Origin: Trypanosoma brucei
Taxonomy: Eukaryota
Length of the DNA: 64,000 nt
NCBI GenBank assembly: GCA_000002445.1
Contig: CM000207.1
Location: forward strand, 1,088,001-1,152,000
Reading direction: 5' to 3'
Each line of letters opens with the position of its first letter. The stretch's first letter is position 1. Positions 7,303-58,119 of this stretch are shown here, in pieces. The notes under the pieces were generated by a model, which did no database searches, was not told the origin of the DNA, and saw only the letters and a program-made list of their open reading frames with translations. The position numbers and the translations under genes are program-made.

Positions 7303-7710
7303 ATGGAAGCAGCGTGCCGGTGCCGCCGCTGCACCAAAGCTTACTTGACTCAATGATGAGAGTACTTCCGTTTCTTTCCTCTATTTTTTGTTACCCTTTG
7401 TTACCCTTGTTTTTATCAGCATCGTCAAATTCAATGTTTTTCTACTTTCCTTCATTCATTTTCTCGTTTCTTAGTTTGTTTATTGACTGGTCCGTTATAT
7501 TTTATGGCATTGTGGCTTGCAATGTGTTTGTTGCCCTCAGGGAAGATGGGGTTTACTGCAGACGTGAGGAGCACTCTCACAGCAAAGCTCAACTACTTGA
7601 CTTATTTCCCTCCTTTGACACATCCATTACTTCATTTCCTTGAAAGGAAGGGAAATGTGTTATTTGGTGATGTCCTCCCTCCCACTGATGCTGCGGGTGG
7701 TGTGTAAATA

Positions 7711-35611: not shown

Positions 35612-35720
<109 letters not shown>

Positions 35721-36471: not shown

Positions 36472-36760
36472 ATGCCTTGTACTTCTCTTTGTTTCCTTCT
36501 GCTTTGCTGCTATGTTATTAGCCCCTCACCTCATTCTCTGTTGTTGTTTTTTTTCCTGTTTCTTCAACGCCACTCGAACATGGGAAAGAATGGGCTTTTA
36601 CACTCTCACTTATCTCCCCTCTTCACTCAGCTTATTCGTTTAGCAACCCCTTCCGTTATCCTTTTCCCTTTTATCGGTCTGTATGCACGCATAATTCTTT
36701 TTTTTTATTGTTGGCTCGTATATGTGTTTACTTCTCTTTGTTTTTATATTATTTTATATT
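36472..36760 (+). promoter_or_regulatory. Extended (about 290 bp) pyrimidine-rich tract upstream of the next gene
   Basis: Continuous C/T-rich sequence. The ORF-track protein starting at 36472 mostly translates this tract (LCFLLLCCYVISPSPHSLLLFFFLFL…). Confidence 0.5.
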
Positions 36761-36813
36761 ATACACATATATACATATATATATATATATTTCCGCCTAG
36801 TCGGCTAGTGGGG

Positions 36814-37365
36814 ATGAAAAACAAAGCGGCATCTCGTCGCGACGAAAAACTCATCAAAGGGACTAATATCATTGTTAAGAATGTTTCCCTTATTGACAAA
36901 CATAGGAACGATCCTCAGGCACTGCTTCACTCCATAGAAGCTGATGACGCCGTTGAGTTGAGGTGGTGGAGAAACGCACTTCGCCCGGAAGCTAATCTCA
37001 TTGAACCCGCTGTTGCGTACTTGCAGGGTATTAAAGTTATTCGACCTGCTACGAACTTTAATACATTTGACATCAAAAAGGCTCGTCTTCGCCGATTAGA
37101 AAAGCAGGAAATTGAGAGAAAGAAATGTCTTGAGAGGCGTAAAAGAGATGTCGCTCCGACGGCTGCCATGAAGGCATCTGCCAATCCGTACCGGGTCCCG
37201 CGTTCCGGTGGATACATAAAACAAAAGGACGACCGCATCATTCAGCGGGGTGAAAAGACCAAAAAAGCAGCCAAGAAAGATATCAAAGAGAGTGGTGGAA
37301 AGACTCAACGTCATAAAAGTAACGGCGAGAAGGGGAAGTTGCAAAAGATAGGCAAAGGTTTGTAA
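36814..37365 (+). CDS. Small lysine/arginine-rich protein (183 aa), likely nucleic-acid-binding or nucleolar
   Basis: In-frame ATG 36814 (MKNKAASRRDEK) lies after the pyrimidine tract and a (TA)n run. pI clearly basic: KKARLRRLEKQEIERKKCLERRKR…KKAAKKDIKE. Confidence 0.45.
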   Translation: MKNKAASRRDEKLIKGTNIIVKNVSLIDKHRNDPQALLHSIEADDAVELRWWRNALRPEANLIEPAVAYLQGIKVIRPATNFNTFDIKKARLRRLEKQEIERKKCLERRKRDVAPTAAMKASANPYRVPRSGGYIKQKDDRIIQRGEKTKKAAKKDIKESGGKTQRHKSNGEKGKLQKIGKGL

Positions 37366-37798: not shown

Positions 37799-38941
37799 GT
37801 GAGCAGGTTCGTTGTGAGTACACAAACTAGTAGGCGAAGAATGCGATCCGGTCGCAAACTCGGTTGTTTTACTAATCGCCTTCGTCTTCCTTTTTTCAGC
37901 CCATGCTCACAGATAACAGCGCTGACAGCGTCACATCGTTGCAAGTCTTATGTACTTAAGTTCTTGCGAGGTCAGTTGCCAGAAGACCTGAAAGATGTCA
38001 ATGGCGCCCTCGGATGTCTTTACGGCACGCTTCCTGATGTGGATGAGTTCGGACAGTTTGTAATCTCCCCTGATGTTGTAAACAGCTTCCATCAGTTTGG
38101 TTATGTGAAAATGCCAATACCGGTGCTCGATCATCAGCAGATTGATAAACTGGCGGACGAGGTGAACGAGTTGGCCAACAATGTGGAGCACCACCCCAAG
38201 ACGGAGAGATTGTATGCGACTTCCCTAGCGGATTTAACTGGAGGGCCATTATTTTTTTGCCAGGGTCAGTGGCGTGCAGCGTGGGGAATGCATGACCTCA
38301 TTTACCTTCCCACTATTACCGTAGCTGCTTCACAGATCCTCAACAACTCGCTCGTTCGATTGTGGTACGATGAGGTTTTTATGAAGGCGGCGAGAACGGG
38401 GCCATGTGTTCCTTGGCAGCAAAATTATGCGCGTTGGCAACATACAAAACCAGTCAACCACGTCACTGTCATGATTGCGCTCGACACAATGAACAAAGAT
38501 CGTGGGGCTCCCTGCCTTGTGCCTGGTAGTCACCGCTGGAGGGAGGGCGGTTTACTTCCACCCGTCTCATACGACCCAACAAAAGATGAAGCGCACCAAC
38601 TGAACACAATATGGGAAATCATTAATGAAGAAGAGGGTGAAATGCTCATGGACACACCACCCGTTACGGTGGATCTTCGTCGTGGTGAAGCTCTTCTCAT
38701 TCACCCACTGACGCTCTTCGCAACGCATGGTAATCGCTCATTGGATGCTGTGCGTTGCTGCTTTATTCATTACATGGGTGAGAAAACATACGCGGTCCAA
38801 AATGGGCCGCTTCTTCCACATACGACTAAATTCCAGGCGGATGCCATGATTCAGGGCCCATTTTATCCAGTTGTGTTTGATCCGGCAATGACTGAGGAAT
38901 TAACCATGCTTCCCACAGCGCCATCCGAAGAGGAGGCGTAA
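37799..38941 (+). CDS. Phytanoyl-CoA dioxygenase (PhyH)-family 2OG/Fe(II) oxygenase-like protein with a substituted His-x-Asp motif
   Basis: VTVMIALDTMNKDRGAPCLVPGSHRW and GEALLIHPLTLFATHGNRS align to human PHYH [27 protein letters not shown] and GDTVFFHPLLIHGSGQN. The position of PHYH HPLHQDLHYF reads VPWQQNYARW here, so H-x-D becomes Q-x-N. Confidence 0.6.
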   Translation: MSRFVVSTQTSRRRMRSGRKLGCFTNRLRLPFFSPCSQITALTASHRCKSYVLKFLRGQLPEDLKDVNGALGCLYGTLPDVDEFGQFVISPDVVNSFHQFGYVKMPIPVLDHQQIDKLADEVNELANNVEHHPKTERLYATSLADLTGGPLFFCQGQWRAAWGMHDLIYLPTITVAASQILNNSLVRLWYDEVFMKAARTGPCVPWQQNYARWQHTKPVNHVTVMIALDTMNKDRGAPCLVPGSHRWREGGLLPPVSYDPTKDEAHQLNTIWEIINEEEGEMLMDTPPVTVDLRRGEALLIHPLTLFATHGNRSLDAVRCCFIHYMGEKTYAVQNGPLLPHTTKFQADAMIQGPFYPVVFDPAMTEELTMLPTAPSEEEA

Positions 38942-40034: not shown

Positions 40035-40077
40035 TTGTTGTTGTTGTTGTTGTTGTTGTTTTTGGGGGGGGGGGGGG
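40035..40077. repeat. (TTG)8 microsatellite, then T5, then poly-G(14)
   Basis: ttgttgttgttgttgttgttgtttttgggggggggggggg, read directly. Confidence 0.9.
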
Positions 40078-40489: not shown

Positions 40490-41609
40490 ATGAGGAGGAG
40501 GGGGAAATGTGGCGGTGAAAGGTTGGAGATTTTGCTCGTAGTTTCGATGTTATTGTTGGTGACGTGTTTAAATCGTTACGGTGTTATGGGTCGCGTCTGG
40601 TTTAAGGGTGGGGAGAAAAATTTAACGGCGGTTGGTGAAGACGAGTATCTAAAGTTTGTGCCAAACGCAACGGCAAATATGTGGAAATAGAGGAATTACT
40701 TTGTTGTTGCCGGTATACAGTCTGTGGATAATGTGGAGCGGTACAGGCGTAGGTTTCTACAGCGAGAGAGACGTGTTGGAAATACAGTGGTGTGGCCGCA
40801 GAGAGAAATGATTTCATTGGAGACTTCCTTCCCTTATATTTACTCTCCCCTCACCAACAAAATGATTACAGGTTCTCAAACTTCTCGAAGTTGGAGGCAT
40901 TAAGTTTTCAGGGCATTGTTGTACTGCCAACACGTGATGTGTACCCGGGGACGAGGAAGCAGATCGGTGATTATTCGAGTTGGGGGCGGAAAGTGGAGGT
41001 GATTATGAGTAATAAAACATATTTGTGGTCCAAATTTTCGTTAGAATTCTTCATCCCCACACCGTACATAATGAAAGGTGATGATGACGCTTTCATTAGG
41101 GTGACACACCACCTTTCTAATTTACGGATGATGCCACGGAAAGGTTTAAATATGGGAAAGTGCAGTGAAGCCAGTGGTGGAATGTCTGAAGATAAACCTG
41201 TTTCATTTATCGCGGGTTACTGCAACACGCTATCGAGAGATGTTGCACAGGCAGTAGTGAGCTATAAGCCCCCTTGGAACGCCTGGTTAACACACACTAC
41301 TTTTTCTGGAATTTCAATACGTTTTACGAGCCGGCGATGTTTAACGAAGATGCCATGGTCAGAACGGTACACACGGAGAAGGTGAACTATACAAGACTGG
41401 TGGCAATTGACATGAGAGAATGTCACTGTGCTGGACACTTCAGGTCCCATGAGGTAGATCTGATATGGGGCAAAGTTATCGTCTTGCACCACGTAAGAGA
41501 AGAGGTTTATGATCAGTTAAAGGAAGCGCTCCCTGAAAGTTGCATCTCGCCTCGTCCAGTGGACCTCATGTGGATAACGGACAGTTTTGCTGCTGCGAGC
41601 TGCGAATAA
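40490..41609 (+). pseudogene. Beta-1,3-glycosyltransferase-family (trypanosomatid UDP-Gal/GlcNAc-dependent GT) pseudogene: type II signal anchor plus K-x-DDD motif, disrupted by an in-frame stop and at least two frameshifts
   Basis: Frame 2: MRRRGKCGGERLEILLVVSMLLLVTCLNRY (short cytoplasmic tail plus TM), then a TAG stop at 40688-40690, then SVDNVERYRRRFLQRE. Frame 1 from about 40770: TCWKYSGVAAE…VVLPTRDVYPG…IMKGDDDAFIRVTHHL, which matches the beta-3-GalT K.DDD.F motif. Frame 3 from 41274: NTHYFFWNF…EKVNYTRLVAIDMRE…. Confidence 0.6.
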
Positions 41610-42727
41610 TTTGAGCCCCACCGCCTAGTGATTTCGCGCGCGAGCGGCCTTACAAAATGTTGGAGTGGCAACACAGCGGAAGGTGCGGCGACTGTTTCCC
41701 TTTATAACCGAGAAACAATCACAGGTGTATGTTATTCCGAATCCGCTCTGGAGCTAAAAGCTGTAGAAGCATTAACGAACCGTGGTGGGAATGTGAAGGG
41801 TGCGTTACGCATCTGAAATGATCCCAGCTTTCTAGTTTCTATGGGGTCCTTGGCAGCGGGCAGGTGGTGTTTTCGTGACTGCATTCGCTTTGCTGGGGTA
41901 TATTATTACGGAGCGCCCACGCAGCCTAAACGTTGAAGCCCGCATTGTGCGTTGCTGCACGGGACGCATCGTGGTGGACAGTTTTTGCAGGTTTGTGGTA
42001 CCCGGGGTTAAGGAGGGATCACATTTACGGCACTGTGCTTTGCACTTTCGCCTTCAGGATACTTTAAGAAGGGCCTGTTGTAAGAAAAAATGTTCCTATC
42101 CGCCGTGTCACTCGCACACGCGCTGGCGATGACACAATTTATCAGACTCGGGGTGGATGAGCTGGATTGTCGTGCCTCCACAGCCCCCAATGGTTTGCGG
42201 ACGGCTGCGAGGGAACACCTCATTACCTTACTTTTCTGTAGGATTCAAAGAGCTGTTGATTACGGGACCTATCCAATAACTGCTGTTTGCCCGAAAGTTA
42301 CCGAACGTCTGCAAGCAGACGCGCTTATGCTGATGTCCCTGGATGCACGGCCCTGCCATTTTAACTTTCCAGGTGTGCCATCCACTTTGTGGTCTTTCTG
42401 TGCGATGCACCGGTTTGCGCGTCCTTTGCAGGAGAGTTGTGCATTCCCAGCTCTCTCATTCCGTTATGGCCTCATCGGTGACGAATATAATTTGTACCGG
42501 AAATGGTAGGGGTCCGTTGTGGTGCACAGAAGTTTGATAAATTTTTTGCGATGTTCTTTTTTTTTTTCATTGTTAAGTGAGCATTGCAGGCATCGATTAA
42601 CTTCATTACCTTTAAAACGAAGGAACTTGTATTGTTTTCTGAGTGGAAACTGTTTGACATGCTGCATAGCGCTGCCCATGCACTTTACTTGTCTAAGGCA
42701 TATTAGGACTCGTGACGGCAGCTTGCC

Positions 42728-43012
42728 ATGTGTGGAGGCGACGCTGCGGTCGAAAGAAAGGTTATAGAAGTTGAACGAGAGTGCCTTGATATGCTTTACC
42801 AGTTTTCGGACGTGCAGTCTGCGCCGGCGCCTACACAGAAACCCCGAACAGCGACGGCTGAGTACGGGATACTCATCGAAACCATTGAGTACCTTGAAAC
42901 CCTGCATTCCTACTTAGCGCGCGGCTCTCAGGAAGGGAAGAACTCCCGCCACACTGTTGTGAAGTCGGTGGTGCGCGATCTAAGGGGTTTCAAGGCAGCC
43001 AGGAATCTATAG
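42728..43012 (+). CDS. Possible small ORF (94 aa) at the end of the plus-strand cluster; hypothetical
   Basis: GC-rich, coding-like composition (…LIETIEYLETLHSYLARGSQEGK…). No domain. Could be the true last gene of the cluster or noise. Confidence 0.2.
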   Translation: MCGGDAAVERKVIEVERECLDMLYQFSDVQSAPAPTQKPRTATAEYGILIETIEYLETLHSYLARGSQEGKNSRHTVVKSVVRDLRGFKAARNL

Positions 43013-45024
43013 CGCACTGCACGATTCTCCGCGGCCCAAGTTGCAACGTGCGATTCACAGCCGCAACCCGTACATAGTGCCCCTCGCACTCATGTTGTAA
43101 TTGGTAACAAATTTATAGTTTAAGGCCCCACCGGAAAGAGACGAGCGAGCTAACCTGCCAAGCTATCCGTGTACGCTTGCCATAAGCGTACCTGCAGCGG
43201 CATTTGCTTCGCATTGGACCTTCAGTGGGTAATATTCGTCGCTTTTTTTTTTGTCTGACTGCTTTGAGTGACGGAGCGCATGTGTACCAGCATTCATTTC
43301 TTGTGGACTCACATGTCCGTGAAACATTTGTATATGAATACTTAAGTTTGTTGGAACTTCTTTTCTTGTCCCTCTGATACCTGAAAGCTTCGAACGCGGT
43401 TACAGCTGATCATCGACAAAGCGACACCACTCCATCCGGTGCAGCTGGTGGGACATTGTTTTCTTTGTCACAGCGAGCCTGGAGACCTTGTGAAGCAGCG
43501 GTGTCGCTCCATAACTTGCAAATGATTTCTCTAATTTTTCTTTTGCTCTGCTTTAATACCTCCATTTTCCCCGAGAGTCAAAGCGCCCTTGTGCCGTCAT
43601 CTTTCCGCCCGTGTGCTTAATCTCGTCTTCGGGACATTAACCATCTAAATTTCGCCCTTTGCATTACTTGAGCTTCCGTAAAACACCAACGTGAGTTGTA
43701 GTGGTCTCCCTTCGTAGTGCGTGACAGCGTTCGGGGATTGTGATACTGACATCTCGTATCCCGTTAGGTTCTCCATAGAAAGTGAAGGGATCGATAACGC
43801 GACGGCACGGTACGAATGTTGTGGCTCCGATGTGGGCATGACGTGCGCCGTAGTACGGTTGTCGCTCGCCGTTTAGCCGTGCCAATGCCTTCTTCGGGTA
43901 AATCTTCGGTGTTCGGGTGTGACTTCTTTTCTCGTTCTATCGGTGAAGGCACATCTTCAGCTGCATGTAAACAGTGGGAAGAAGAAACCCCATCCAACAT
44001 CCCGCGACTGCATAACATACCCAGGTCACCCACATCTCTAATGTCCAGTCAGTTGCCTAACCTGAGTGTCTTCTAGCCAATATTGAGAACTCGCCCGGCA
44101 AGCAAAGGGTGCCAACACCTGTTCTCGTGGCTTTGGTTCCACTAGATTTTACTTTCCCCAGAGAAGTAATTGGCCCAAACATGTACACTCACGGGATTTT
44201 GTGAGCGGCACCCTTGCTCAACTGATATGCTTGAGATGTGTCAACATTGACTTATGCTGAGGTAGATGAGACACCGGAGGTCGGTCGTTTTTCTGCAGCC
44301 TTGGGTGTCTCAGTTTCTTGTTTCCCGACGATGAAGCTTTAACAGTTGCTCTTGCGTGCCGATGATTGTGTGTCGTTTCTTCAGTTTTCCACCTTGTTCC
44401 ATCGCCTCCGTCCGCGATGACTGATCGAAAGTCGGTGCCGCGTCGCGCTGTTTCCTAAAGAAACAGAGGGATTTCTGCACCAGACTCGGTGCCCCGCTAG
44501 CTCACTACCAGATTTGTCTGCTTCCCTTGACATGACACATCACAAGAACCTTCTCGTTAAAAAAGAGGCAAAGAAGGTCGGAAAGCAGGTGCAACTTTCG
44601 ACATCCGCTTCGTTATGGTGTTGCAGACTGTTTCATACTGTTAGGGATGTGGATAGTTGTTCGGTTTACATTTTTTGCGAATGCTTAATCGCATACACTG
44701 TACTGACGTGGAAACAACTAGGTGAATGAACAGTGTTGGAACTTGGGATGCACACGATCACACAAGCACTGGACAAAACTGTGGCTGATTTGGGAATCAA
44801 CGGTTCATACCGGATGCTCGCGCCCAACACAAAACTGTTTCACTACACGTCATGTTTCACGTCTGAAAAATATGCGGGTGGAAACGCCTACCTGCTGCGG
44901 CCGATCCTCCAATTGGCAATGCGAAGGCACCGGGAAAGAGGTTTGGAATAACTCAAAACAAAACTGCTCGATTAAATAAGGGGGGATAATACATTGCTTG
45001 TTGGGGATGGATTTACGGTTTTGT

Positions 45025-45038
45025 AAAAAAAAAAAAAA
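45025..45038. repeat. Poly-A(14) homopolymer
   Basis: Read directly. Lies in the strand-switch region, 65 bp from the 3' end of the first minus-strand surface-protein gene. Confidence 0.9.
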
Positions 45039-45102
45039 GAGCGCGTGGGCGCCACAAGTTTATACACTATTTGTATCAAGTTTTGCTGTCTGCCGCTATG
45101 GC

Positions 45103-46584
45103 TCATAACAGTAAAAATAACGCCAGTGGCGTTTGGAGGTTGTTCACACGGCTTCGGATAGCTCGTCTTCGCGTCGCGGCCACGCATGCATCTCCATTCC
45201 ACTCACATCCCATTTCCGCTTTTAGGCCGGCACATGTTTGCTCCCGCTTGTAATCGTTGCATTCAAGTAAAGGGGAACTGTCCCCCCCGTCTCCTTCGTC
45301 GTTTTTTACTGCGGCACCAACGACGGACTCCGATATGCCTTCTCTATTACCGTTGCTTTGTTCGAGTCTGGGTGAGCCCGGCCATTTATTTCTACCCTCC
45401 GCACCTCTGCTTCCTGAGTGAGGGCTGCCACCCCCCCTGCCGGGTCTGATTTTTGTGTGTTTCGTGTTTAAGGCCATTATTTCGTCTTCTAACTCACTTA
45501 ACCTCGCGTCGATGGCGCTTAGTTGGTCTATAGCATCGGCTGCCGCCTTCATTTTCTCCAGCCACGGTAGGGTCGGATTATTTCGCTTGACGTTGCTTAC
45601 ACTGTATTGCACGCAGCGTCCCTGCCCGGTTTTGATGATTCCAGTACAACCTGTGGCCAAATTACCCTCAAACTTGCCTAGCACTGTCAAATCCATGCCC
45701 CTTGTACTCGAGGGCCGAAGCCGCTTGAGAAGCAGATTCATTGCGTCCGAAAGACTTTTCCTCGAAAGCTCGGCATTACTGCCAATTTTCTCGCATTGGT
45801 GTTTGAGATATCCCCATCTTTCTTCTCCAGCCTGACTGGGTATCCACGTGTCGCTATTGCCCCCTTTTTCGCATTCCGCGCAGCAACCCTGGTCGCTTTC
45901 AACGGCACTTCCCGATGCACCACATAGACACAATAAGTCAATACTCAATGCCAAACCAGCCAAACTTCCTGCAAATATCCCTCGGCCGCAAACATCCTTG
46001 CGACCGTATGTTCCCCTCATTACCTCCCCATTTTGTTGTCCGGACCCATAGAGTGCCTCTATCAGATTTTTTTCTATTGATGTCTCCTTCAATATTCTCC
46101 ATAATCCATCATTATCTTTCATGCAATCCTCGGCACGTTCTGCGGCATTTGCTACCTTTCTCTTATCTTCTTTACTCAAGGCACTCCCGGTCCATACCGC
46201 ATATTTGTCCTTTTCAGGACCCCCAAGCTTGCTCCTTGCTCCTGTCCAAAATTTCCGGTGCCCCTCATTTGTTTCGTGAGAATGTTTTCTGTCGTCCGCT
46301 ATTTCTTCCCAATCTTTAGTTGCTCTCTCCAAATCAGAAAAACTCTGATACTCTACGGCCAAGCTTATAGCTCCAATGTTTGCTGCTGTGTCTTCGACTC
46401 GCGCAAGAAGTGCCGCGTGGTCTTCGGAGTTGCTCGCCAAATTAATTAAACCACACAACGCCCTAAAGTCGCCCTCATTTTCTGCACCCTTTGCAACTAG
46501 TGCCGCGCGCGGAATCAAAGGCAGCGTTACTATCGACACAAAAATAGCCCACCTCCCGATCAACATGCGCACTTTTTCAACCAC
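45103..46584 (-). CDS. Variant surface glycoprotein (VSG)-family gene, 493 aa
   Basis: N-terminal signal peptide (MLIGRWAIFVSIVTLPLIPRAALVA). VSG-type N-terminal motif ENEGDFRALCGLINLA. Internal DLLCLC motif. Four-Cys C-terminal module (CNDYKREQTCAGLKAEMGCEWNGDAC) and a hydrophobic C-terminus (TPLALFLLL*). Sits in an AT-rich context unlike the upstream core. Confidence 0.7.
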   Translation of the reverse strand: MVEKVRMLIGRWAIFVSIVTLPLIPRAALVAKGAENEGDFRALCGLINLASNSEDHAALLARVEDTAANIGAISLAVEYQSFSDLERATKDWEEIADDRKHSHETNEGHRKFWTGARSKLGGPEKDKYAVWTGSALSKEDKRKVANAAERAEDCMKDNDGLWRILKETSIEKNLIEALYGSGQQNGEVMRGTYGRKDVCGRGIFAGSLAGLALSIDLLCLCGASGSAVESDQGCCAECEKGGNSDTWIPSQAGEERWGYLKHQCEKIGSNAELSRKSLSDAMNLLLKRLRPSSTRGMDLTVLGKFEGNLATGCTGIIKTGQGRCVQYSVSNVKRNNPTLPWLEKMKAAADAIDQLSAIDARLSELEDEIMALNTKHTKIRPGRGGGSPHSGSRGAEGRNKWPGSPRLEQSNGNREGISESVVGAAVKNDEGDGGDSSPLLECNDYKREQTCAGLKAEMGCEWNGDACVAATRRRAIRSRVNNLQTPLALFLLL

Positions 46585-48964
46585 CGCTTTTCTTTACAAA
46601 CTCTAGTCCCTTTAAATGGCTCTTTGAACACACCTCCACAAAGTTTACCAAGAAGTAAAAAATGAGTGAAAACGGAGCAGAAGATGCCTGCCGCGTTGAG
46701 CAGTGCACTCACTTGCCTGTGCGCATTGTGATGGCCATACTGTTTTCAACGCCCACTAAAAAATGACCATTCCTCTCATTATTTAAGCGAATGAACTATA
46801 TATTTACAAAACATTTTTGCATGTATTAGTTTATATCAAAAGTGCCAATTTTCTAACCAGAACAAGGGGATGCACAACTGCGAAAACAGCGTTACTAAAA
46901 TAAAATTAGGTAGCAAACGCAGAATCTGATTTGGTGCATGCAGGTGCTGGGGAATTTGTGATATTTTCCAGTTTGAATTCTTAAGAATTGTACACCTTTG
47001 CTTTCGGTAAAAATTCTCAACTTCTTTCAGCTTGGCTTTTGCATCCTATTTAGCTTTAGCTTTAGCGTTTCGTTGGTATTTTTGATTTTCCACTATCTGT
47101 AATTCTGGATTCGTTACCCGCTACGACTGCAACAAATCCACGCCTCTACCTTCCATTAAAAGTTCATCTATATACTGAATTGGCTTTTGATTTTTTTCTT
47201 TAGTTAGCACCTTGCTTCTCAATTTCGAATTTCCTCCACCACACTTCCCATACCTACATCAACTGACTTCTAATTTGAAAGTTATTTTCTCACCATCTTC
47301 TAGTTTATCCGGGCGTGGTTTTGTCCATTTTCAACTCTGCCCTCTCTAATTTTGGAATGGGTTGTAAAAGCCACTTCTGACGGGTTCAAATTGTTTGGAC
47401 CGTCGACACTCGACGCCATTTTGACGAAACTTCCAATGAAAGCCGGTTCTTTCCTTGATTTTCGGCCAAAAACGACGAAATTCGTTGCCTTTGTTGAGCG
47501 CCCGCCTCGCGTGACATCAAAGATTTTAATTTCCTCCACAATCTTATGACCACTTGCTCCTATAACCAAGCACTTTGACTCACCTTGACAGTTCCTTTCG
47601 ACAACCTCCCACCCGCTGGCGGCCAGATCTCCTACACAGAAACGGTTGTGTCCTTGTTCTCTCTGTGGAAACATATTTATTCTTTCATCAATATTCCTCC
47701 CGTTTACAGTGCCAGTTTTGTTTCCTCTTTTCGTAAAGCTTCTGACTCCCCAGTTTCGCCAGTGATCCTCTAATCACCATAATTCATGCGAGGTCACACA
47801 CCCTGATAAAATTAAGGCATCTTTACCATGCCAACTTTAACATGTCAAGGAAGGTTTAGGACATTTACAACGAGCCCTTAGTTTATTCTATCTGTTCACA
47901 AACCCTCACTCAAAGTCCCTGTTTTGATATACCACAGACCTTTGTGGAGCCGCCTGAGTTTAGAGGAATTTCCGATCCAGCGATGGTATTTCTTATCCCT
48001 GCACCGGTTGAACAAGTGAGGAATTCGTCATAAAAGGTGGCGCATTCGAATGTGATGATATTCAATCCGCAGTTTAAACCACCAGCATTGCCTAATTTTC
48101 CGAAGCGAAGTTTTTTCCGGGACAAAACATACGCATAACTTCTTTATGATTTTCCCTAAACAAGAAAGAATCAAATTTGATGTTGTCATAATTTTTCAAT
48201 AATAATAACAAAGAAAAGATATTAGCACTCTCTGAGGTTCGCTCACTTAAATTTTAAATGCAGATATTAATAGTGGTAAGTCTCGTGAGCCACTCTTTCA
48301 CTTTCTAAGAGTAGAGCAAACGACTCCAGCTCCTGAAGGTGTTTTGGAAAAGCAGCTCTCTCCGCAACCTCTTTTTGAAATTGTGAAGTATGATATTCCT
48401 AGATCTATTAGGAATACACGACCTCCGATGCTGAAACAAACAAAAACATTGCTTACTTACTAGCCATTAGCCCCGTAGTTAAAAACCTTTACTAGAGTTT
48501 TAATAAGTCATCTTTTTGACTCAAAAGAGGTAACGTGTCATGTGTATGATATCAATCACTACACTTGATGCGAACTCATCCTCACGCACTACATACAGAG
48601 TGCCTGCAGAGTCAGGAAACTTTGTGTAAAAACAACAAAAAACCTCCGCGTTTCTTCCTTAAGTTTGTAGACAATATTTTGAAGTAATTATATTGTGGGC
48701 TAAAACTGATCCATAATTACTTCCTTTCTCTCCAGCTCCACCTTCTCGTCGCACCATAATTGCCTTTAGAAGAGGTAATAAATCACCTGTTTTTCTCAAG
48801 TACAACTGCGACGTTGTCGTTATGGTTTGTTTTTCCCTTCTAGAACGTTAATCATCCACATTCCATGTAACCTTTACCTTTATAAAATATGACACTAAAA
48901 TCCACTATTATCCACATTTATATTGTTATTATTAACATAAAGAAGCCACGCGTGTTAGATTGCG

Positions 48965-50110
48965 TTATATCAATAGCAACAAATACACCAACAGAGGTGA
49001 AATGATTTGAGTTTCATTTTTTGGTCGAAGTGGCTTTTGTGATTGTCGTGACGATTCTGTAGTGTTTGTTTCTCTTGAACTAAACGGATCAGTGTCCGTA
49101 GTAGTTTGCGTATTTGTATTTGCATTTGTACCTGATGTTACGGATGCCTCGCTCTCTGCTGCTGTTTGAGGGTGTTGTGGGTGTGGCTGAGCTGGGAGTG
49201 GTTTATTTTTTTCTTCCACATTTTGCTCCGGGGGTTGCACAACAGGTTGTGAAACCCTAGGTTGTTGGTGCGTTTTCCCTCCTTCTGGATTATTTTCTTT
49301 CGATACTGGCGGCCCCTCATTCTTTCTTGCCTCGTTTTGAGGGTTGGCCAGTTTTTCGATAAGTTTTTCCAGTCGTGTAAGCCACTCGACGTTCAGCCTT
49401 CCCGTTTCCTCACCTCCCAGTTTGTACATAACACAAGGGGCGTCCCTCAGATTATCTGAAGCTCCGCAGGATTGAGTGATTGGTGGACTTCCGTGTCCAA
49501 AGCGCTTTGTTTCGCTGTTTCCCGTTCCTCTTTCCCTTTCCTTTAGTTTTGTTGAAAGATTCTCCTTCATTGTTTTCAAAGTTTTGGCATCAGGTCTCGC
49601 AGCGTAAATTGCTGTGGAACATTTTTCCATAACGCTTTTCCAATGCTGTTCTGCTTGTGTTCCGTTGCTCCAGCTTTATTCACCATTTTGCCATATGTTG
49701 CTTTCATAGCACAGATTGACCATTTCGCCTTTACCATTTTGTGGCTTGCACAAACACAGAAGATCTACTGCCAACGCTTTACCTGCAAAAACAACTTCAC
49801 TCGACGTCACTGCATCTACGTAACCGCAGTCATTATAGCGTCGATCTTTTCCATTCCAATTAAGGGAGCCATCACTTCCATCTCCGTACAATATTGTGTT
49901 TATGGTAGTGTTATATTCGTTTTCATTGTCGCCTACTTCATCCTCGTTTTGTTTAACCAACTCTCGTATTCCCAGTGTTAAATTTAAAAAACTGCATAGT
50001 GTGTCAAATTCTTCTTTATTCTTTACGGAGCCGTCTGGGGATGCCTGACAACTCACTTCTTTTATCACCAAAACCAGGCATATCAAAAACCTAACTGAGT
50101 ATTTCCACAT
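48965..50110 (-). pseudogene. VSG-superfamily paralog split by a frameshift (N-terminal ORF 49676-50110, C-terminal ORF 48965-49630) with a P/Q/T-rich mucin-like stalk and a hydrophobic C-terminus
   Basis: N-terminal part has a signal peptide (MWKYSVRFLICLVLVIKEVSC), NKEEFDTLCSFLNL and ALAVDLLCLC. C-terminal part is …QPPEQNVEEKNKPLPAQPHPQHPQTAAESE…TNANTNTQTTTDTD…IISPLLVYLLLLI*. The two halves lie in different frames and overlap by about 45 nt. Confidence 0.6.
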
Positions 50111-51013
50111 TTTCTTGGCTTTCCCGTCTAACTCCTAAGTTTCAGAGGAAGAATTTGTTCAGCGAGTTTCGCAAACATTAAAACATATTTTTGATCTTCA
50201 AATAGAAGCGCAAATTTATATTATACATGCACCATCATACAAGTAATGCACCACGTTAGAATGTGAAAACATTCAGTTAAATTACTGATGGGTAAGCATC
50301 ATTCGCTGCTGGGGCAAATCATTGTTGCATTCAGAGTCGACAACTAATCAATTATGTGCAATTTTGCTTTGCAACAAAAGAAATGCTTATTTTCTTGATG
50401 TGCGTGTTTACTCTTCACCCCTGCGGATCACCATTAACAGGAGCAAACCCTCTTCTTCATCACTTTAAAAACAGAAAAAATGCATCACATACTAGTTCTC
50501 ACACGCTCCAAAAAATTTCGCTTTATAATGTACTTTTTAGAAAGGTTTTCATGGTCCACATGGCTTCAGTGGTCATTCAATTTCACGACAGGTTACCTCT
50601 CTACACAGATCGCGCAGTGCACCACTCCAATAGTCCCTTTTTTACTTCATACCCTTCATAGACTCTGACCCTGTGAAGAGGGGGAGTAGAAGCATGCTCA
50701 CTCGTGGATCGCGTCCGCAGAAAAAATAAAAATATTCTATTACTATATACGCGGACTACGCTACAAGTATAGAATCCTATAATCCATTATGAATGTGTTT
50801 TCTGTTCTTTAGACCGAGGTGTACGCATTTACACCTTCCTACAGTCAAGCTATACGCACAAATCATAGAACGAAATGATAAATTGTAACGGGGGTAAAAC
50901 GTAATGGATGTGTCTCCAAACACGATTATCATCGAATCAATATAGCTAAAGTGATGTGGACTCCAAGTTAGTAATCCCAAAAACAAAACCATTGCACAAA
51001 ATACAACATTGAA

Positions 51014-52129
51014 TCACATAACCAACATTTCTGCAAAAAATATTAGACCTATTATGGCGTGTTGCTTCCTCATTTTGAATCCTTCTTCATCTATAACATC
51101 GTCTTCATCCTCACCTCCCTTGCGCTTCTTCCCACTCTCCTTGAAATATCTACGCACTATCGGGCTCTGAGTTAACAATTCTTTTAGTTTATTTTCATGC
51201 TTTGCAAAGGATGTAAGGGTTGGCTGTACATCACGGTACTGTTTTGTAATACTTTCATATCCTCTTCTAACCAAAGTGTAGTTCTTGATCAGTTCGCGCA
51301 CCATGTCACTAGATTTCAGAATAACGGCAGAATCTTTTTTGTAGGTAACAAACCCTCCAGTAGTCCCCACTATGAAAGATCCAGGTCCTCCATTTGCAAC
51401 CTTTTCCGTGCCCATGATCCAGCACTTTGTGCTGTTATCGGCTGTTAGTTCGACTTCTCGGTTAGCTGTGTATTTTTTAAGCACAGACAATATACCATCA
51501 TCTGAATTATCCTCAGTGAAAGACATATTACATTTGTTTGGGGCTTCCGCTGCTTCGTATTTGCAATTACCTTCCCCACCACTTCCACATCCATTCTCAC
51601 CTCCCGAAGAGCCTGCTTCCTTCACCAAACAACACCATTTACTTTCTTCATCCTTCGTTTTCTCAAACAATACTACCAAATCCCTCAATACTTGTCCAAT
51701 TGACAGTGATGCATTCACAACATGATAGGAGACTCTCACAATGTCTAAGAAACTAGCATCCATTACCTGAAGAGCATTATCCATATTATTCATTACTTTT
51801 TCCATTTCCACATATGTTTTCTTTACATTTTTCATCTCACTTCCATTAACAACCCCTATCTTCTCCAGACCCTGCACTATTGCTTTCCATGTTCTCCCCT
51901 TTACACCATGCCGATGCCGCCATTCCCGAAACTTATCTACCATTCCTGTCGCATTTTGGTGCTTCTTCAGAATCTCAGCACTCACAACCCTTAAGGCATG
52001 ACTGAGGTTACACAATGTTTCAGCTCCCTTGAGAGTCATAGCCTTTCCAGAAGGTTGCCCCTCCACTGTCCCAGTGACAATGCCAAACACTGTCAGGCAC
52101 ACTGCAAGAAAAAGTGATATCACCTTCAT
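51014..52129 (-). CDS. VSG-superfamily (VSG/ESAG6-7/PAG-like) surface glycoprotein, 371 aa
   Basis: Signal peptide MKVISLFLAVCLTVFGIVTGTVEG. KGAETLCNLSHALRV N-terminal motif. Cys cluster KWCCLVKEAGSSGGENGCGSGGEGNCKYEAAEAPNKC. Acidic/lysine-rich tail then a hydrophobic end, HAIIGLIFFAEMLVM*. Confidence 0.65.
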   Translation of the reverse strand: MKVISLFLAVCLTVFGIVTGTVEGQPSGKAMTLKGAETLCNLSHALRVVSAEILKKHQNATGMVDKFREWRHRHGVKGRTWKAIVQGLEKIGVVNGSEMKNVKKTYVEMEKVMNNMDNALQVMDASFLDIVRVSYHVVNASLSIGQVLRDLVVLFEKTKDEESKWCCLVKEAGSSGGENGCGSGGEGNCKYEAAEAPNKCNMSFTEDNSDDGILSVLKKYTANREVELTADNSTKCWIMGTEKVANGGPGSFIVGTTGGFVTYKKDSAVILKSSDMVRELIKNYTLVRRGYESITKQYRDVQPTLTSFAKHENKLKELLTQSPIVRRYFKESGKKRKGGEDEDDVIDEEGFKMRKQHAIIGLIFFAEMLVM

Positions 52130-52296
52130 TATTTATCTAAAAACGAAACAAGTTTACTTGAGGCAATTTAATACAGTATATCTCATTAGAAACTAACACG
52201 CACATGAACACACATATGCATACATACACACCATTTTAAATGCAACAAAGACGCAAAAAAAACATAACATAACATATTTGGTAATGTAATATTAAA

Positions 52297-53715
52297 CTAA
52301 AAGATAAGAATAAGAGATAAGAATAATAACAATATAAACCCCCACGTTTCCATATTCAAATGAGTAAGTCCATCATTATTTACCTCAGTATTATCACCTT
52401 CGCTGTCACCCTTTACTCGGCTACTTTTCCATAGCTCTGCATCACCACCTAGTTTCACCTCAAGAAATATTTCCTCGGCCTCGTGTTGATACTCTTCCAA
52501 CTCATGAAGATGACTGTCAGCTTCTTTTGAATATTTATCCATTTCTTGCAGTTGCTCGGTAGCGTTAGTAAGACGATTGTACCATGGAATTCCACCATTT
52601 TCAAGTGTGTACTTGTAACTGACACATGTGAATCCAGCAGTATGACCCGTGCATGTCCGATTTTCGTTTTTATCAGTTCTCACATAACCAAAAATACCCT
52701 TCACCTGATATTTATCCTGTTCCAAATTCACTAAGGCATCAAACTGAGCTAATGCACTTTTCAAAGTCTTTACATTCGATGCAACGTTTTTGTACACACA
52801 AGCTTTACTAATCACATCCCATGCCTCAGTGTAATTGTATGTTATGTTGTCTGGGCTGCAGGGGCTGCTATTGGCCTCACAGTAATTTGCCATCATTGTC
52901 CAACTTCCATTTTTTGGTCTTCTTATTTCATCTTTACAAGGACAATTGAACCCATTATAAACACTATCACTATATTTGCCCTTACCGCTCTCTTCTTTTT
53001 TTTTATCTTCATTATCTTCATTATCTTCTTCCTCTTTCTCGTCTCTTTTCTGCCTCATATCTTCAGTCACATTTATAGCCTCTCCCACACATAGACAGAA
53101 AAAGTCATTGATTAGTGTCTTTCCAACCAGCTTGTCTCCATAAGAACCGCAACTCGTGCCTGCATTATCAATACTATTGAACAGCAGTGACTTGTTTCCC
53201 CTCATGGCTTTCTCTAGAGTTTTATTCTCATTTCGTGCCACATCCACAGCGTCTCCATACACAGCTTTCAACATATTGTCTTCGGCAGAACGACTTGCAT
53301 TTAACGCTTTTGTCCTATTCACTTCTATTTCTTCCTTCAGCTTTTTCGCCTTTTCAAGCAGTTGTATCATCAACTGATATGCTGTCGTGCTGTTAGATGA
53401 ATTGCTCGAGCCTTTATTACTTCCAGCGGCCCCCACCACACTGACCATTTCCTCCAACTCATTCAGAATATTAGCTTCTTTCTCACGGTTCTTGAAAGAG
53501 GGTTGTGGTGCTTCTGCCTGCGTAATTCGGTAAATTTTGCACAGTGTCTCGAACTCACCGACGTTATGGTATTTGTAACTATCGTCGATGTAATCCGTAA
53601 TGCTTCCCCAGTCAACCATATCAGGCCGCCATTTGTACGACCCCATATCTCCCTGAAAGGAAGGAGATAAAACAGCTGCAAAAAGCCCAACAGCGAACAC
53701 TATTTCACACCTCAT
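52297..53715 (-). CDS. VSG-superfamily surface glycoprotein, 472 aa
   Basis: Signal peptide MRCEIVFAVGLFAAVLSPSF. NVGEFETLCKIYRI. INDFFCLC motif. Many N-glycosylation sequons. Acidic low-complexity insert (EKEEEDNEDNEDKKKEE). Hydrophobic C-terminus WGFILLLFLSLILIF*. Confidence 0.7.
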   Translation of the reverse strand: MRCEIVFAVGLFAAVLSPSFQGDMGSYKWRPDMVDWGSITDYIDDSYKYHNVGEFETLCKIYRITQAEAPQPSFKNREKEANILNELEEMVSVVGAAGSNKGSSNSSNSTTAYQLMIQLLEKAKKLKEEIEVNRTKALNASRSAEDNMLKAVYGDAVDVARNENKTLEKAMRGNKSLLFNSIDNAGTSCGSYGDKLVGKTLINDFFCLCVGEAINVTEDMRQKRDEKEEEDNEDNEDKKKEESGKGKYSDSVYNGFNCPCKDEIRRPKNGSWTMMANYCEANSSPCSPDNITYNYTEAWDVISKACVYKNVASNVKTLKSALAQFDALVNLEQDKYQVKGIFGYVRTDKNENRTCTGHTAGFTCVSYKYTLENGGIPWYNRLTNATEQLQEMDKYSKEADSHLHELEEYQHEAEEIFLEVKLGGDAELWKSSRVKGDSEGDNTEVNNDGLTHLNMETWGFILLLFLSLILIF

Positions 53716-56700: not shown

Positions 56701-57330
56701 CCAATTGACTTAAGTTCTTTACATATCTTTACCTTTAGCAATTCACTCACTTATTGAGTATTCGTCCCTTCAAATCCTTTATGCGCTTCAGTTATCCGCA
56801 TTGATTAAACACATTTTTAGGTTAGAAATATAATCTCACATTTGACTGCTGAAACAATCACTCTCTTCCACGCAGCGCAAGCCTACGTTTCCGTTAAGCC
56901 GCTCTGCAGTATGTTAACCCTTGCGTGTTCAGTGACTCTTATTATACATCTTTAAAGAAACTCCTCATTGCGGTTTTTTGATAGTATTAACCTCATATTT
57001 CCTTTTCCTATTTAAAATCAATTATTTGAGATCGTAAATCGTTTGTTGTATCACATTTCTGCATTTTTTAATGGTTGTACTTTTCCGCTTACACGATAAA
57101 TAGCCTTAATTTCTTTTCCTCTCTTGCGACTTTTAATTTTAGCATGTTCGCTCTTACTAATTCAGAGTTATTCGACCATCTTACAATGACTTGCCACAAC
57201 AGCCCATGCACATATCCCTTAATGAAAACACTTGCAAGTTAGTTACTGATTCACAGCCTTACTTCGACCTATGCGGCGTTCACTTTATTCAGCAGTTGTG
57301 ACCTGATGCATCAGCGTAAAGCAACAGACA

Positions 57331-58119
57331 TTAGAAGATTATGAAGCTCAGTACTGTGGATAGTATCATCGCGTGTCTTTTGTGACCTACACCGTTCCTT
57401 CTTTGTTCACTCTCTTTAGAAGACGAGGTCTCATTTGTACCGCTTGTCACTACATCTGAAGGTCTACTCACTTCTGGTTCGGACGCTGCGCTTCGCAGTG
57501 GCGATGCAACATACCTGTCATCCTGCCCCGTCACTTGTGGTGGCGGGACAAATTTTTGCGTTTCTTCTTCATTACCTTGCCTGTTCTCCCTTCTTGTTTT
57601 AGTTTCACCTTCATCTCCCATCTTTTTTTTTGCCTGAACCCTCTGATGGTCGCTAGTGACGGCAGCAGCGCCCACATAATTCGCTTGCGGGAGTTCGTTA
57701 GATGACTTCACACTCGATTCTGGACTTCCATGGGGTTGACCATCATCAAGTTCCGTGGCCACTTCAGGAGACTTCTCCTGAGGCTTTGAAGTTTGGTGAC
57801 TGCTCCCATTGCCACCGTTTGAACTCGAGTCTGTAGACCGCGGCCCCAATGGCTTTTGTGTGCTGGTTTCTTCTTGGAGTTGTGACTGGGGTTGTTGGAT
57901 AGCGGAAGCTGTTACGGGTGGATTCTGTTGGTGAGTAGAGCTGCGCCGGTTTGCTGTCACAGTCCCACATTCCAGAACTCCAGTGGTGGGAGAGGTACGG
58001 TATTCAGTGCATGAATCCCTGCTCATAGTGACATCCACTGCGCTCACAACCCGCTGTTCAACGCCAGCCACGCACAACATTAGAATCAAAAATAGGCTCG
58101 TTGCAATCATGAGCATCAT
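57331..58119 (-). CDS. Surface-type protein (262 aa): signal peptide, then S/T/Q/P-rich mucin-like region, then a hydrophobic C-terminus. Stalk-only relative of the neighbouring VSG-like genes.
   Basis: MMLMIATSLFLILMLCVAGVEQ is the signal peptide. QQNPPVTASAIQQPQSQLQEETSTQKPLGPRSTDSSSNGGNGSSHQTSKPQEK… is the stalk. …HAMILSTVLSFIIF* is the hydrophobic end. Composition resembles the stalk of the 48965-49630 ORF. Confidence 0.5.
   Translation of the reverse strand: MMLMIATSLFLILMLCVAGVEQRVVSAVDVTMSRDSCTEYRTSPTTGVLECGTVTANRRSSTHQQNPPVTASAIQQPQSQLQEETSTQKPLGPRSTDSSSNGGNGSSHQTSKPQEKSPEVATELDDGQPHGSPESSVKSSNELPQANYVGAAAVTSDHQRVQAKKKMGDEGETKTRRENRQGNEEETQKFVPPPQVTGQDDRYVASPLRSAASEPEVSRPSDVVTSGTNETSSSKESEQRRNGVGHKRHAMILSTVLSFIIF

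What the first reader, a model, noticed from the sequence alone, without database searches (positions are those of the whole stretch)
41610..45102. Convergent strand-switch region separating the core cluster from a minus-strand surface-gene array
All supported genes left of about 41.6 kb are on the plus strand and all genes right of 45.1 kb are on the minus strand, so transcription converges here. The 3.5 kb between them has no convincing CDS. It contains a poly-A(14) run at 45025, poly-T runs at 42557 and 43244, a perfect hairpin at 43171-43191 (gtacgctt gccat aagcgtac) and a second hairpin at 44268-44311. Base composition changes sharply at this point, from GC-rich on the core side to AT-rich on the array side. 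Such regions are expected termination sites; in T. brucei they are marked by base J and H3.V/H4.V.
Basis: partly seen in the sequence, partly recalled or inferred. Interest (0 to 1): 0.55.

Follow-up and report, generated by a model that had tools for sequence, protein, structure and literature searches.

The report
Known trypanosome convergent transcription stop zone
This 3.5 kb gene-poor stretch of Trypanosoma brucei chromosome 9 is where a housekeeping gene train and an oppositely oriented cluster of surface-protein genes run into each other; it is a real but ordinary transcription-termination zone that has already been catalogued.

Summary
The window is T. brucei brucei TREU927 chromosome 9. 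Left of the gap lie plus-strand housekeeping genes. They end with MRB7260 (Tb927.9.7260, 37841-38941) and a frameshifted glycosyltransferase pseudogene (40613-41609). Right of the gap lies a minus-strand, chromosome-internal cluster: a VSG (45103-46566), a VSG-like pseudogene, ESAG11, ESAG2 and ESAG9.

The strand switch is real. The gap has no tRNA, Rfam or Pfam match and shares no repeat with the rest of the window.

Several details need correcting:
- The two hairpins occur at chance frequency, and one is broken in T. b. gambiense.
- The GC drop sits at 46570, the VSG start codon, not in the gap.
- Two small ORFs in the gap are annotated in public assemblies. They evolve neutrally and are found only in Trypanozoon.
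- The A/T runs are modestly enriched and lie on the sense strand of the nearer gene block, like RNA-processing tracts.

Schulz et al. 2016 list a convergent strand-switch edge 3587 bp from the MRB7260 start. They also report more antisense RNA on both flanks when base J and H3.V are both removed.

Novelty: already known. One minor lead is ORF94 (42728-43012), which looks protein-like.

The parts
37841..38941 (+). MRB7260 / Tb927.9.7260 (PhyH-domain RNA-editing factor). It is the last intact conserved gene of the plus-strand transcription unit.
   Evidence: Pfam PhyH E=6.9e-33. Exact match to EAN76751. The PhyH-domain protein on chromosome 9 is identified as Tb927.9.7260 in PMC5855954. pN/pS is 0.15-0.29.
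40613..41609 (+). Frameshifted hexosyltransferase (UDP-Gal/GlcNAc-dependent glycosyltransferase, PF01762 family) pseudogene. Its original stop codon defines the left edge of the gap.
   Evidence: tblastn of 377-380 aa trypanosome glycosyltransferases covers their residues 50-377 in three frames: 40613-40744, 40765-41271 and 41268-41603. The frame-corrected translation matches these proteins at E=1.6e-75 with 100% query coverage.
41610..45102 (.). Convergent strand-switch gap: unique, non-coding, GC-skew-neutral sequence where the two transcription units meet.
   Evidence: No tRNA, Rfam or Pfam match. No similarity to the rest of the window. No VSG or ESAG relics. Cumulative G-C plateau 41991-45285. 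Collinear in T. b. gambiense and T. b. equiperdum.
42090..42509 (+). ORF139, annotated 'hypothetical protein, unlikely' (EAN76753). Probably not a gene.
   Evidence: Found only in Trypanozoon. pN/pS is 0.71-0.85, against 0-0.29 for core genes. Codon score is 0.070 bits/codon, within about 1.4 sd of the null mean. The only other full-HMMER matches are repeat-protein artefacts.
42557..42567 (+). T11 tract on the plus strand, followed by AG. It looks like a polypyrimidine RNA-processing signal.
   Evidence: Its length varies between subspecies. Its function is inferred.
42728..43012 (+). ORF94, annotated only in T. equiperdum assemblies. It is the one protein-like ORF in the gap.
   Evidence: Codon score 0.189 bits/codon, against a null of -0.031 +/- 0.072. 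AlphaFold2 single-sequence three-helix bundle with pLDDT 77, against 44.8 for the control ORF 43816-44076. However, pN/pS is 0.96-1.28, there is no homologue outside Trypanozoon, and there is no fold match.
43171..43191 (.). Hairpin 1 (8-bp stem, 5-nt loop). A chance feature.
   Evidence: Conserved, but without covariation.
43243..43252 (+). T10 tract on the plus strand.
   Evidence: It is interrupted or shorter in the other subspecies.
44267..44312 (.). Hairpin 2 (9-bp stem, about 28-nt loop). A chance feature.
   Evidence: Two uncompensated substitutions in the left arm in T. b. gambiense.
45025..45038 (-). T14 tract on the minus strand (A14 on the plus strand). It starts 65 nt downstream of the VSG stop codon and is probably part of the VSG 3' processing region.
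   Evidence: Its length is identical in three haplotypes although the surrounding sequence diverges by about 6%.
45103..46566 (-). b-type VSG gene (EAN76754, inferred to be Tb927.9.7290). It is the last gene of the minus-strand unit and has core-like GC content.
Evidence: Pfam VSG_B E=2.9e-73. Exact match. The GC change point at 46570 is at its start codon.
48965..50110 (-). VSG-like pseudogene, split into two ORFs.
   Evidence: Pfam VSG_B on the C-terminal ORF. ORF list.
51014..52129 (-). ESAG11-related gene.
   Evidence: Exact match to EAN76756, named ESAG11.
52297..53715 (-). ESAG2-related gene (Tb927.9.7330).
   Evidence: Exact match to EAN76757. ID from PMC8648117.
57331..58119 (-). ESAG9-related gene (Tb927.9.7340, enriched in the stumpy form).
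   Evidence: Exact match to EAN76758. PMC3957582.

Best explanation
The region is an RNA polymerase II convergent strand-switch region (a transcription termination zone) on T. brucei chromosome 9.

A plus-strand polycistronic unit of housekeeping genes ends with MRB7260 and a dead glycosyltransferase gene. A minus-strand unit made of a chromosome-internal cluster of ESAG9, ESAG2, ESAG11 and VSG genes ends with a VSG at 45.1 kb.

The 3.5 kb between them is unique, non-coding sequence that evolves neutrally. Polymerases from both sides run into it and stop.

By analogy with other T. brucei convergent regions, I infer that stopping is set by chromatin rather than by a DNA or RNA hairpin. The relevant marks are histone variants H3.V and H4.V, base J and the PJW/PP1 complex.

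The oligo-T tracts lie on the sense strand of whichever unit is nearer: T11 and T10 on the plus strand up to 43.25 kb, and T14 on the minus strand at 45.03 kb. I read them as polypyrimidine trans-splicing and polyadenylation signals. On that reading, the real zone of overlap or termination lies roughly between 43.3 and 45.0 kb.

Shown here: gene content, orientation, lack of coding or RNA genes, the skew plateau and synteny. Taken from the literature: the locus is listed as a convergent region and responds to loss of J and H3.V. Inferred: the role of the T tracts and the exact stop zone.
For: - Identity and gene map.
- No opposite-strand genes with support.
- No tRNA, RNA family or protein family in the gap.
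- Neutral evolution of the gap ORFs, compared with purifying selection on core genes.
- Cumulative G-C skew plateau 41991-45285.
- Collinearity of the whole junction, including the VSG, in T. b. gambiense and T. b. equiperdum.
- Locus-specific literature. Schulz 2016 S6 Table gives a cSSR edge 3587 bp from the Tb927.9.7260 start, with antisense RNA rising 0 to 0.20 in the J/H3.V double knockout. S2 Data give Tb927.9.7290 sense log2RPKM 2.47 to 3.59 and antisense -5.52 to -3.20.
- General mechanism. H3.V and J co-localise at convergent regions and restrain transcription there.
- Species-specific surface-gene arrays typically sit next to strand-switch regions.
Against: - I could not inspect ChIP, J-IP or strand-specific coverage tracks for this locus. 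The presence of J and H3.V here is therefore inferred from the mutant response and from the class behaviour.
- The effect sizes in Schulz's tables are small: antisense 0 to 0.20 RPKM, and a 2.2-fold change in sense RNA.
- The cSSR edge computed from their table (about 41428) does not coincide exactly with any ORF end that I can see.
- Assigning Tb927.9.7290 to the boundary VSG rests on accession order and distance logic, not on a coordinate table.
- Reynolds 2016 found no read-through across convergent regions after H3.V loss alone.
Confidence: 0.85

Rival explanations
1. The plus-strand unit does not end at the pseudogene. It continues through one or two real, Trypanozoon-specific small genes (ORF139 at 42090-42509 and/or ORF94 at 42728-43012), so the true convergent gap is only about 43.0-45.1 kb.
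For: - Both ORFs are intact in all four assemblies, and the one indel in ORF139 is 3 bp and in frame.
- Both are annotated in some public assemblies.
- ORF94 has core-like codon usage, about 3 sd above the null.
- ORF94 gives a three-helix AlphaFold2 model with pLDDT 77, against 44.8 for a control ORF.
- T11 plus AG lies about 150 nt upstream of ORF94.
- Divergence is lower across 42.5-44.0 kb (1.2-1.6%) than on either side (3-6%).
Against: - pN/pS is about 0.7-1.3 for both ORFs, against 0-0.29 for the neighbouring genes.
- No homologue outside Trypanozoon in 5.8 billion clusters or 1.84 billion representatives, apart from repeat artefacts.
- No Pfam match and no fold match.
- The TREU927 annotators labelled ORF139 'unlikely'.
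- Only one of the five AlphaFold2 models of ORF94 scored high, and there was a single control.
Confidence: 0.12
2. The gap is a boundary between the transcribed core and a silent, heterochromatic VSG array. Nothing is transcribed from the right, so termination is one-sided and the gap acts as an insulator.
For: - The gene at the boundary is a VSG.
- Sequence right of 46570 is AT-rich, with GC 0.407.
- Expression of Tb927.9.7290 is low, at log2RPKM 2.47.
Against: - The cluster is chromosome-internal. Its gene IDs (7290-7340) fall mid-range for chromosome 9. It lies at 0.88-0.90 Mb of 2.16 Mb in T. b. gambiense. More than 1.1 Mb of chromosome lies beyond it.
- Most of its genes are ESAG2, ESAG9 and ESAG11 relatives, not VSGs.
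- No 70-bp repeat and no VSG 3'UTR 16-mer occurs anywhere in the window.
- mRNAs from 7290, 7330 and 7340 are detected and regulated.
Confidence: 0.08
3. The hairpins and T or A runs are sequence-encoded terminators, working like a bacterial stem-loop followed by a U tract.
For: The two perfect stems and three long homopolymers do exist in the gap. The homopolymers are modestly enriched.
Against: - The number of stems equals the chance expectation and is below the window-wide density.
- Folding z-scores are weak.
- Neither stem is directly followed by a T run. T10 starts 52 nt after hairpin 1.
- Hairpin 2 is disrupted in T. b. gambiense with no compensating change.
- From my own knowledge, no sequence terminator for Pol II is known in trypanosomes. 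The published work read here points to chromatin marks.
Confidence: 0.03

Closest known systems
T. brucei convergent strand-switch regions / Pol II termination sites marked by H3.V, H4.V and base J (Schulz et al. 2016, PMC4721952; Reynolds et al. 2016, PMC4721609; Siegel et al. 2009, from my own knowledge)
   Same: Two gene blocks converge on a gene-free gap. The locus appears in Schulz's convergent-region distance table. Flanking antisense RNA rises when J and H3.V are both removed.
   Different: Nothing distinguishes it from other members. The only gap in the evidence is that the chromatin marks at this locus were not seen directly here.
Termination inside a transcription unit that keeps terminal VSG, ESAG or pseudogene members at low expression (Reynolds et al. 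2016)
   Same: The last genes of the minus-strand unit are a VSG, ESAG relatives and pseudogenes. These are expressed at a low level, and the boundary VSG rises 2.2-fold in the double knockout.
   Different: It is not shown that a J/H3.V peak lies upstream of these genes inside the unit. The rise is modest and was not among the >4-fold sense changes listed.
Chromosome-internal, T. brucei-specific surface-gene arrays next to strand-switch regions (Jackson et al. 2013, PMC3605285)
   Same: A tandem cluster of ESAG-related and VSG-like genes abuts a strand switch, and it is conserved among T. brucei subspecies.
   Different: Jackson's explicit examples are Fam1 and Fam4-7 and an ESAG6/7 pair. I did not find this chromosome 9 cluster named in that text.
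Core/subtelomere boundaries of silent VSG arrays (Maree et al. 2017, PMC5359979; Müller et al. 2018, from my own knowledge)
   Same: A VSG gene sits at the edge of an AT-richer block that borders housekeeping genes.
   Different: The location is chromosome-internal. There are no 70-bp repeats and no VSG 3'UTR 16-mer. The content is mainly ESAG relatives, and their mRNAs are detected.
Bacterial intrinsic terminators (GC-rich hairpin followed by a U tract)
   Same: Short perfect stems and T runs occur in the same 3.5 kb.
   Different: The stems are not adjacent to the T runs. They occur at chance frequency and one is not conserved. The organism is a eukaryote with chromatin-defined termination.

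Membership tests
Trypanosomatid convergent strand-switch region (Pol II termination zone) | Two blocks of genes on opposite strands point towards each other, with no supported gene on the wrong strand in either block. | tested here: met
   ORF map and protein identities. Wrong-strand ORFs are nested or short and have no Pfam match.
Trypanosomatid convergent strand-switch region (Pol II termination zone) | Both flanking blocks are actually transcribed. | tested here: met
   Literature only. MRB7260 is an essential expressed gene. Tb927.9.7290, 7330 and 7340 mRNAs have been measured. No RNA-seq could be run here.
Trypanosomatid convergent strand-switch region (Pol II termination zone) | Enrichment of H3.V, H4.V and base J over the gap. 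| not testable with these tools
   Indirect support only. The locus is in Schulz's convergent-region table, and antisense RNA on both flanks rises in the J/H3.V double knockout.
Trypanosomatid convergent strand-switch region (Pol II termination zone) | Strand compositional asymmetry (GC skew) changes sign across the gap. | tested here: met
   GC skew is +0.068 on the left, +0.023 in the gap and -0.187 on the right. The cumulative maximum forms a plateau from 41991 to 45285.
Trypanosomatid convergent strand-switch region (Pol II termination zone) | Optional: Pol III genes (tRNA, snRNA) at the termination site. | tested here: not met
   ARAGORN finds none. Rfam finds none at gathering score or at E<=1. 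This feature is not required for membership.
Silent subtelomeric VSG array boundary | 70-bp repeats upstream of the VSGs and the conserved 16-mer in VSG 3'UTRs. | tested here: not met
   No 16-mer match with up to 2 mismatches. One chance-level match to the 70-bp core motif. No tandem repeats in the array. Both motifs were recalled from memory.
Silent subtelomeric VSG array boundary | Position at a chromosome end. | tested here: not met
   The locus is at 0.88-0.90 Mb of 2.16 Mb in T. b. gambiense and at 0.62-0.64 Mb of 2.44 Mb in T. b. equiperdum. The next head-to-tail site to the right is 1.1 Mb away.
Sequence-encoded hairpin terminator | A stable stem directly followed by a T/U run, more frequent than chance and conserved. 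| tested here: not met
Hexosyltransferase (PF01762) gene, intact | A single open reading frame of about 377 aa. | tested here: not met
   Homology is spread over three frames, and the first 49 or so residues are missing. It is therefore a pseudogene.

The most novel reading that the evidence does not exclude
ORF94 (42728-43012, plus strand) may be a real small protein gene, either born recently or retained only in Trypanozoon, that sits as the very last cistron before the termination zone. Alternatively, the 42.5-44.0 kb island of lower divergence may encode a processed long non-coding RNA at the convergent region.

The evidence does not exclude this:
- Codon usage is about 3 sd above non-coding ORFs.
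- One AlphaFold2 model gives a three-helix bundle with pLDDT 77, against 44.8 for a control ORF.
- A T11-AG signal lies upstream.
- The ORF is intact in all four assemblies.
Probability: 0.1. Interest if true: 0.3.

Novelty: already known. Interest (0 to 1): 0.15.

Why it matters
It matters little beyond correct annotation. The result shows that a reader working from sequence alone can find a trypanosome termination zone from gene orientation. It also shows which of the cues used were informative and which were not. Gene orientation, the skew plateau and sense-strand T tracts were informative. The hairpins and the claimed location of the GC shift were not.

For trypanosome biology, the locus is one more example of a species-specific surface-gene cluster (VSG, ESAG2, ESAG9, ESAG11) parked at the end of a transcription unit next to a J/H3.V-controlled stop zone. 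That arrangement is thought to keep such genes at low expression. The junction, including its VSG, is conserved across T. brucei subspecies.

Tried and rejected
- Exact-protein contig look-ups for the VSG and for ORF139 returned nothing. TREU927 gene positions are apparently not indexed, so I used the Arf-like protein and the PhyH protein to fetch the T. b. gambiense and T. equiperdum loci.
I repeated it with X in place of stops and found no Pfam match.
- blastn of the gap against the rest of the window, and tblastn of the window's VSG and ESAG proteins against the gap, gave only chance matches. There are therefore no eroded array genes or shared repeats in the gap.
- Searches for the VSG 3'UTR 16-mer and the 70-bp repeat core, both recalled from memory, found nothing.
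- The G-quadruplex scan found one motif, at 5485, and none in the gap.
- A full HMMER search with ORF139 gave two extra hits. These are a translated tandem repeat and a bacterial repeat protein, so I rejected them as artefacts.
- A Foldseek search of the ORF94 model against the PDB returned only generic helical bundles, with E>0.3.
- Gene-ID hunt. My recalled ID for DSS-1 (Tb927.9.7210) and several DSS1 or KDSS1 searches found nothing. The ID was finally anchored through the PhyH domain of MRB7260.
- The supplements of Kieft 2020 and Reynolds 2016 contain no Tb927.9.72xx or 73xx IDs.
- The bacterial promoter/terminator scanner was not used, because it does not apply to a trypanosome.
Full report
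WHAT THE WINDOW IS

Seven proteins encoded in the window match entries of Trypanosoma brucei brucei TREU927 chromosome 9 exactly:
- DSS-1 (EAN76747).
- An Arf-like protein (EAN76749).
- A conserved hypothetical protein (EAN76750).
- A PhyH-domain protein (EAN76751).
- A 'hypothetical protein, unlikely' (EAN76753).
- A VSG (EAN76754).
- ORF94, which exactly matches a T. equiperdum protein (SCU64977), not a TREU927 entry.

The PhyH-domain protein is MRB7260, Tb927.9.7260, an essential mitochondrial RNA-editing factor (PMC5855954).

Genes to the right match ESAG11, ESAG2 and ESAG9 entries. Published tables give Tb927.9.7330 as ESAG2 and Tb927.9.7340 as a stumpy-enriched ESAG9, and Tb927.9.7290 as 'a VSG pseudogene'.

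Accession order, together with the distances in Schulz's tables, makes the boundary VSG (45103-46566) the best candidate for Tb927.9.7290. This is an inference, not a coordinate match.

CHECKING THE OBSERVATION

The strand switch is real. All large ORFs that are not nested inside another are on the plus strand up to 41.6 kb and on the minus strand from 45.1 kb. The left block encodes housekeeping proteins. The wrong-strand ORFs in either block are nested or short, and none has a Pfam match.

The stated homopolymers and hairpins are present at, or within one base of, the stated coordinates.

The gap contains none of the following:
- tRNA genes.
- Rfam matches, even at E<=1.
- Pfam matches in any of six frames.
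- Sequence shared with the rest of the window.
- Relics of the neighbouring VSG or ESAG genes.

The hairpins are not meaningful:
- The gap has three perfect 8-bp stem matches, which make up the two hairpins. Simulations give 2.26 +/- 1.93, and the window-wide density is 5.0 per 3.5 kb.
- Folding z-scores are -1.2 to -2.1 for stems chosen after the fact.
- Hairpin 2 has two uncompensated changes in its left arm in T. b. gambiense.
- Neither stem is directly followed by a T run.

The A/T runs are mildly enriched. P=0.0048 against the whole window and P=0.032 against non-coding sequence alone.

The claim about composition needs correcting. GC content is 0.503 in the left block, 0.491 in the gap and 0.499 in the boundary VSG. 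It drops to 0.407 only beyond that gene. The best single change point is 46570, four bases from the VSG start codon. What does change inside the gap is strand asymmetry: cumulative G-C rises to a plateau from 41991 to 45285 and then falls.

THE EDGES OF THE GAP

The 'gene' ending at 41609 is a hexosyltransferase pseudogene. Trypanosome glycosyltransferases of 377-380 aa align to it over their residues 50-377, but in three different reading frames. A frame-corrected translation matches them at E=1.6e-75 over its full length. The last intact conserved plus-strand gene is therefore MRB7260, which ends at 38941.

On the right, the T14 tract on the minus strand begins 65 nt after the VSG stop codon. 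Its length is the same in three haplotypes that differ by about 6% in the surrounding sequence. By contrast, T11 and T10 vary in length between subspecies.

IS THERE A GENE IN THE GAP?

Public annotations call two ORFs:
- ORF139 (42090-42509) is labelled 'unlikely' in TREU927 and T. b. gambiense.
- ORF94 (42728-43012) is called only in the T. equiperdum assemblies.

Neither has a homologue outside Trypanozoon. The two extra full-HMMER hits for ORF139 are repeat artefacts.

Between subspecies, pN/pS is 0.71-0.85 for ORF139 and 0.96-1.28 for ORF94. The five neighbouring core genes give 0.00-0.29. The substitution counts are small.

ORF94 nevertheless stands out in two ways. Its codon usage scores 0.189 bits per codon, against a null of -0.031 +/- 0.072. 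One of its five single-sequence AlphaFold2 models is a three-helix bundle with pLDDT 77, whereas a control ORF from the gap gives 44.8. The model has no informative structural neighbour.

I treat 'no convincing CDS' as supported and keep ORF94 as a low-probability lead.

COMPARATIVE DATA

The whole junction from 38.0 to 46.3 kb is collinear in T. b. gambiense DAL972 and T. b. equiperdum, and this includes the VSG.

Divergence rises across the junction:
- About 0.5% in the core genes.
- 1-6% in the gap.
- 12% in the VSG.
- A less divergent island of 1.2-1.6% at 42.5-44.0 kb.

The locus lies at 0.88-0.90 Mb of a 2.16 Mb chromosome in T. b. gambiense. The surface-gene cluster is therefore chromosome-internal, not subtelomeric.

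Consistent with that, the window has no 70-bp repeat and no VSG 3'UTR 16-mer. Both motifs were recalled from memory.

MECHANISM

Published work shows the following for T. brucei in general:
- H3.V and base J co-localise at convergent strand-switch regions.
- Their joint loss raises transcripts inside these regions and antisense transcripts in the flanking genes.
- Overlapping transcription at such sites yields siRNAs.

For this locus specifically, Schulz et al. 2016 provide two pieces of evidence:
- S6 Table lists Tb927.9.7260 with a 'distance to cSSR edge' of 3587 bp. From the gene start at 37841, that places the edge near 41.43 kb in the window. Antisense RNA over the gene rises from 0 to 0.20 in the double knockout, Q=0.012.
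- S2 Data list Tb927.9.7290 among genes within 5 kb, but not within 1 kb, of a convergent region. Its sense RNA rises from log2RPKM 2.47 to 3.59 and its antisense RNA from -5.52 to -3.20.

It also shows the region was already catalogued.

I infer, but have not shown, that the plus-strand T tracts and the minus-strand T14 are polypyrimidine RNA-processing signals, and that the true overlap zone lies between about 43.3 and 45.0 kb.

COMPARISON WITH KNOWN SYSTEMS

The locus meets the sequence-level criteria of a trypanosome convergent strand-switch region. The chromatin criterion could not be tested here.

It fails the tests for a subtelomeric silent VSG array boundary and for a hairpin-type terminator.

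It fits the pattern described by Jackson et al. 2013, in which T. brucei-specific surface-gene families sit in tandem next to strand-switch regions.

VERDICT

The feature is ordinary and already known. Interest is 0.15.

Noticed in passing
window 45103-64000: The 'surface-gene array' is not a plain VSG array. It is a chromosome-internal minus-strand cluster of a VSG, a VSG-like pseudogene, ESAG11, ESAG2 and ESAG9 relatives (Tb927.9.7290-7340). NCBI lists near-identical second copies of ESAG11 and ESAG2 seven accessions further on (EAN76763 and EAN76764), which suggests a tandem duplication beyond the window.
   Followed up: partly
window 46570: The sharpest GC change in the window (0.499 to 0.407) falls at the start codon of the boundary VSG. 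The VSG itself has the GC content of the core, while the rest of the cluster is AT-rich.
   Followed up: partly
window 40035-40077: A (TTG)10 microsatellite runs straight into a G14 run, in the spacer between MRB7260 and the glycosyltransferase pseudogene. Its function is unknown. It is the only long G run in the window.
   Followed up: no
window 42728-43012: ORF94 has core-like codon usage and a confident three-helix AlphaFold2 model in one of five runs, unlike a control ORF. However, its substitutions look neutral and it has no homologues outside Trypanozoon.
   Followed up: yes
window 44181-45362; L003 19304-20582 and L006 17237-18880: The T. equiperdum OVI contig is a patchwork with N gaps. 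Overlapping pieces are either 100% or about 93% identical to the window. This suggests two old, divergent haplotypes at the right edge of the gap and in the 3' part of the VSG.
   Followed up: no
window 45025-45038: The 14-base homopolymer keeps exactly the same length in TREU927, T. b. gambiense and T. b. equiperdum, although the surrounding sequence differs by about 6%. That is unusual for a mutable homopolymer and hints at constraint.
   Followed up: partly
window 45103-46566 versus L001/L002: The boundary VSG is syntenic in three subspecies but diverges by up to 12-13% in its 5' half, with pN/pS 0.4-0.5. The T. b. gambiense copy carries an in-frame stop.
   Followed up: no
window 35614-35720: A long (TG)53 microsatellite lies just upstream of the Arf-like gene. 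It is the site of the largest indels between subspecies in the core block.
   Followed up: no
window 36472-37365: TREU927 annotates one 297-aa 'conserved hypothetical' protein here. T. b. gambiense splits the same stretch into 101-aa and 183-aa products, and T. equiperdum keeps only the 183-aa one. The gene model is therefore uncertain.
   Followed up: no
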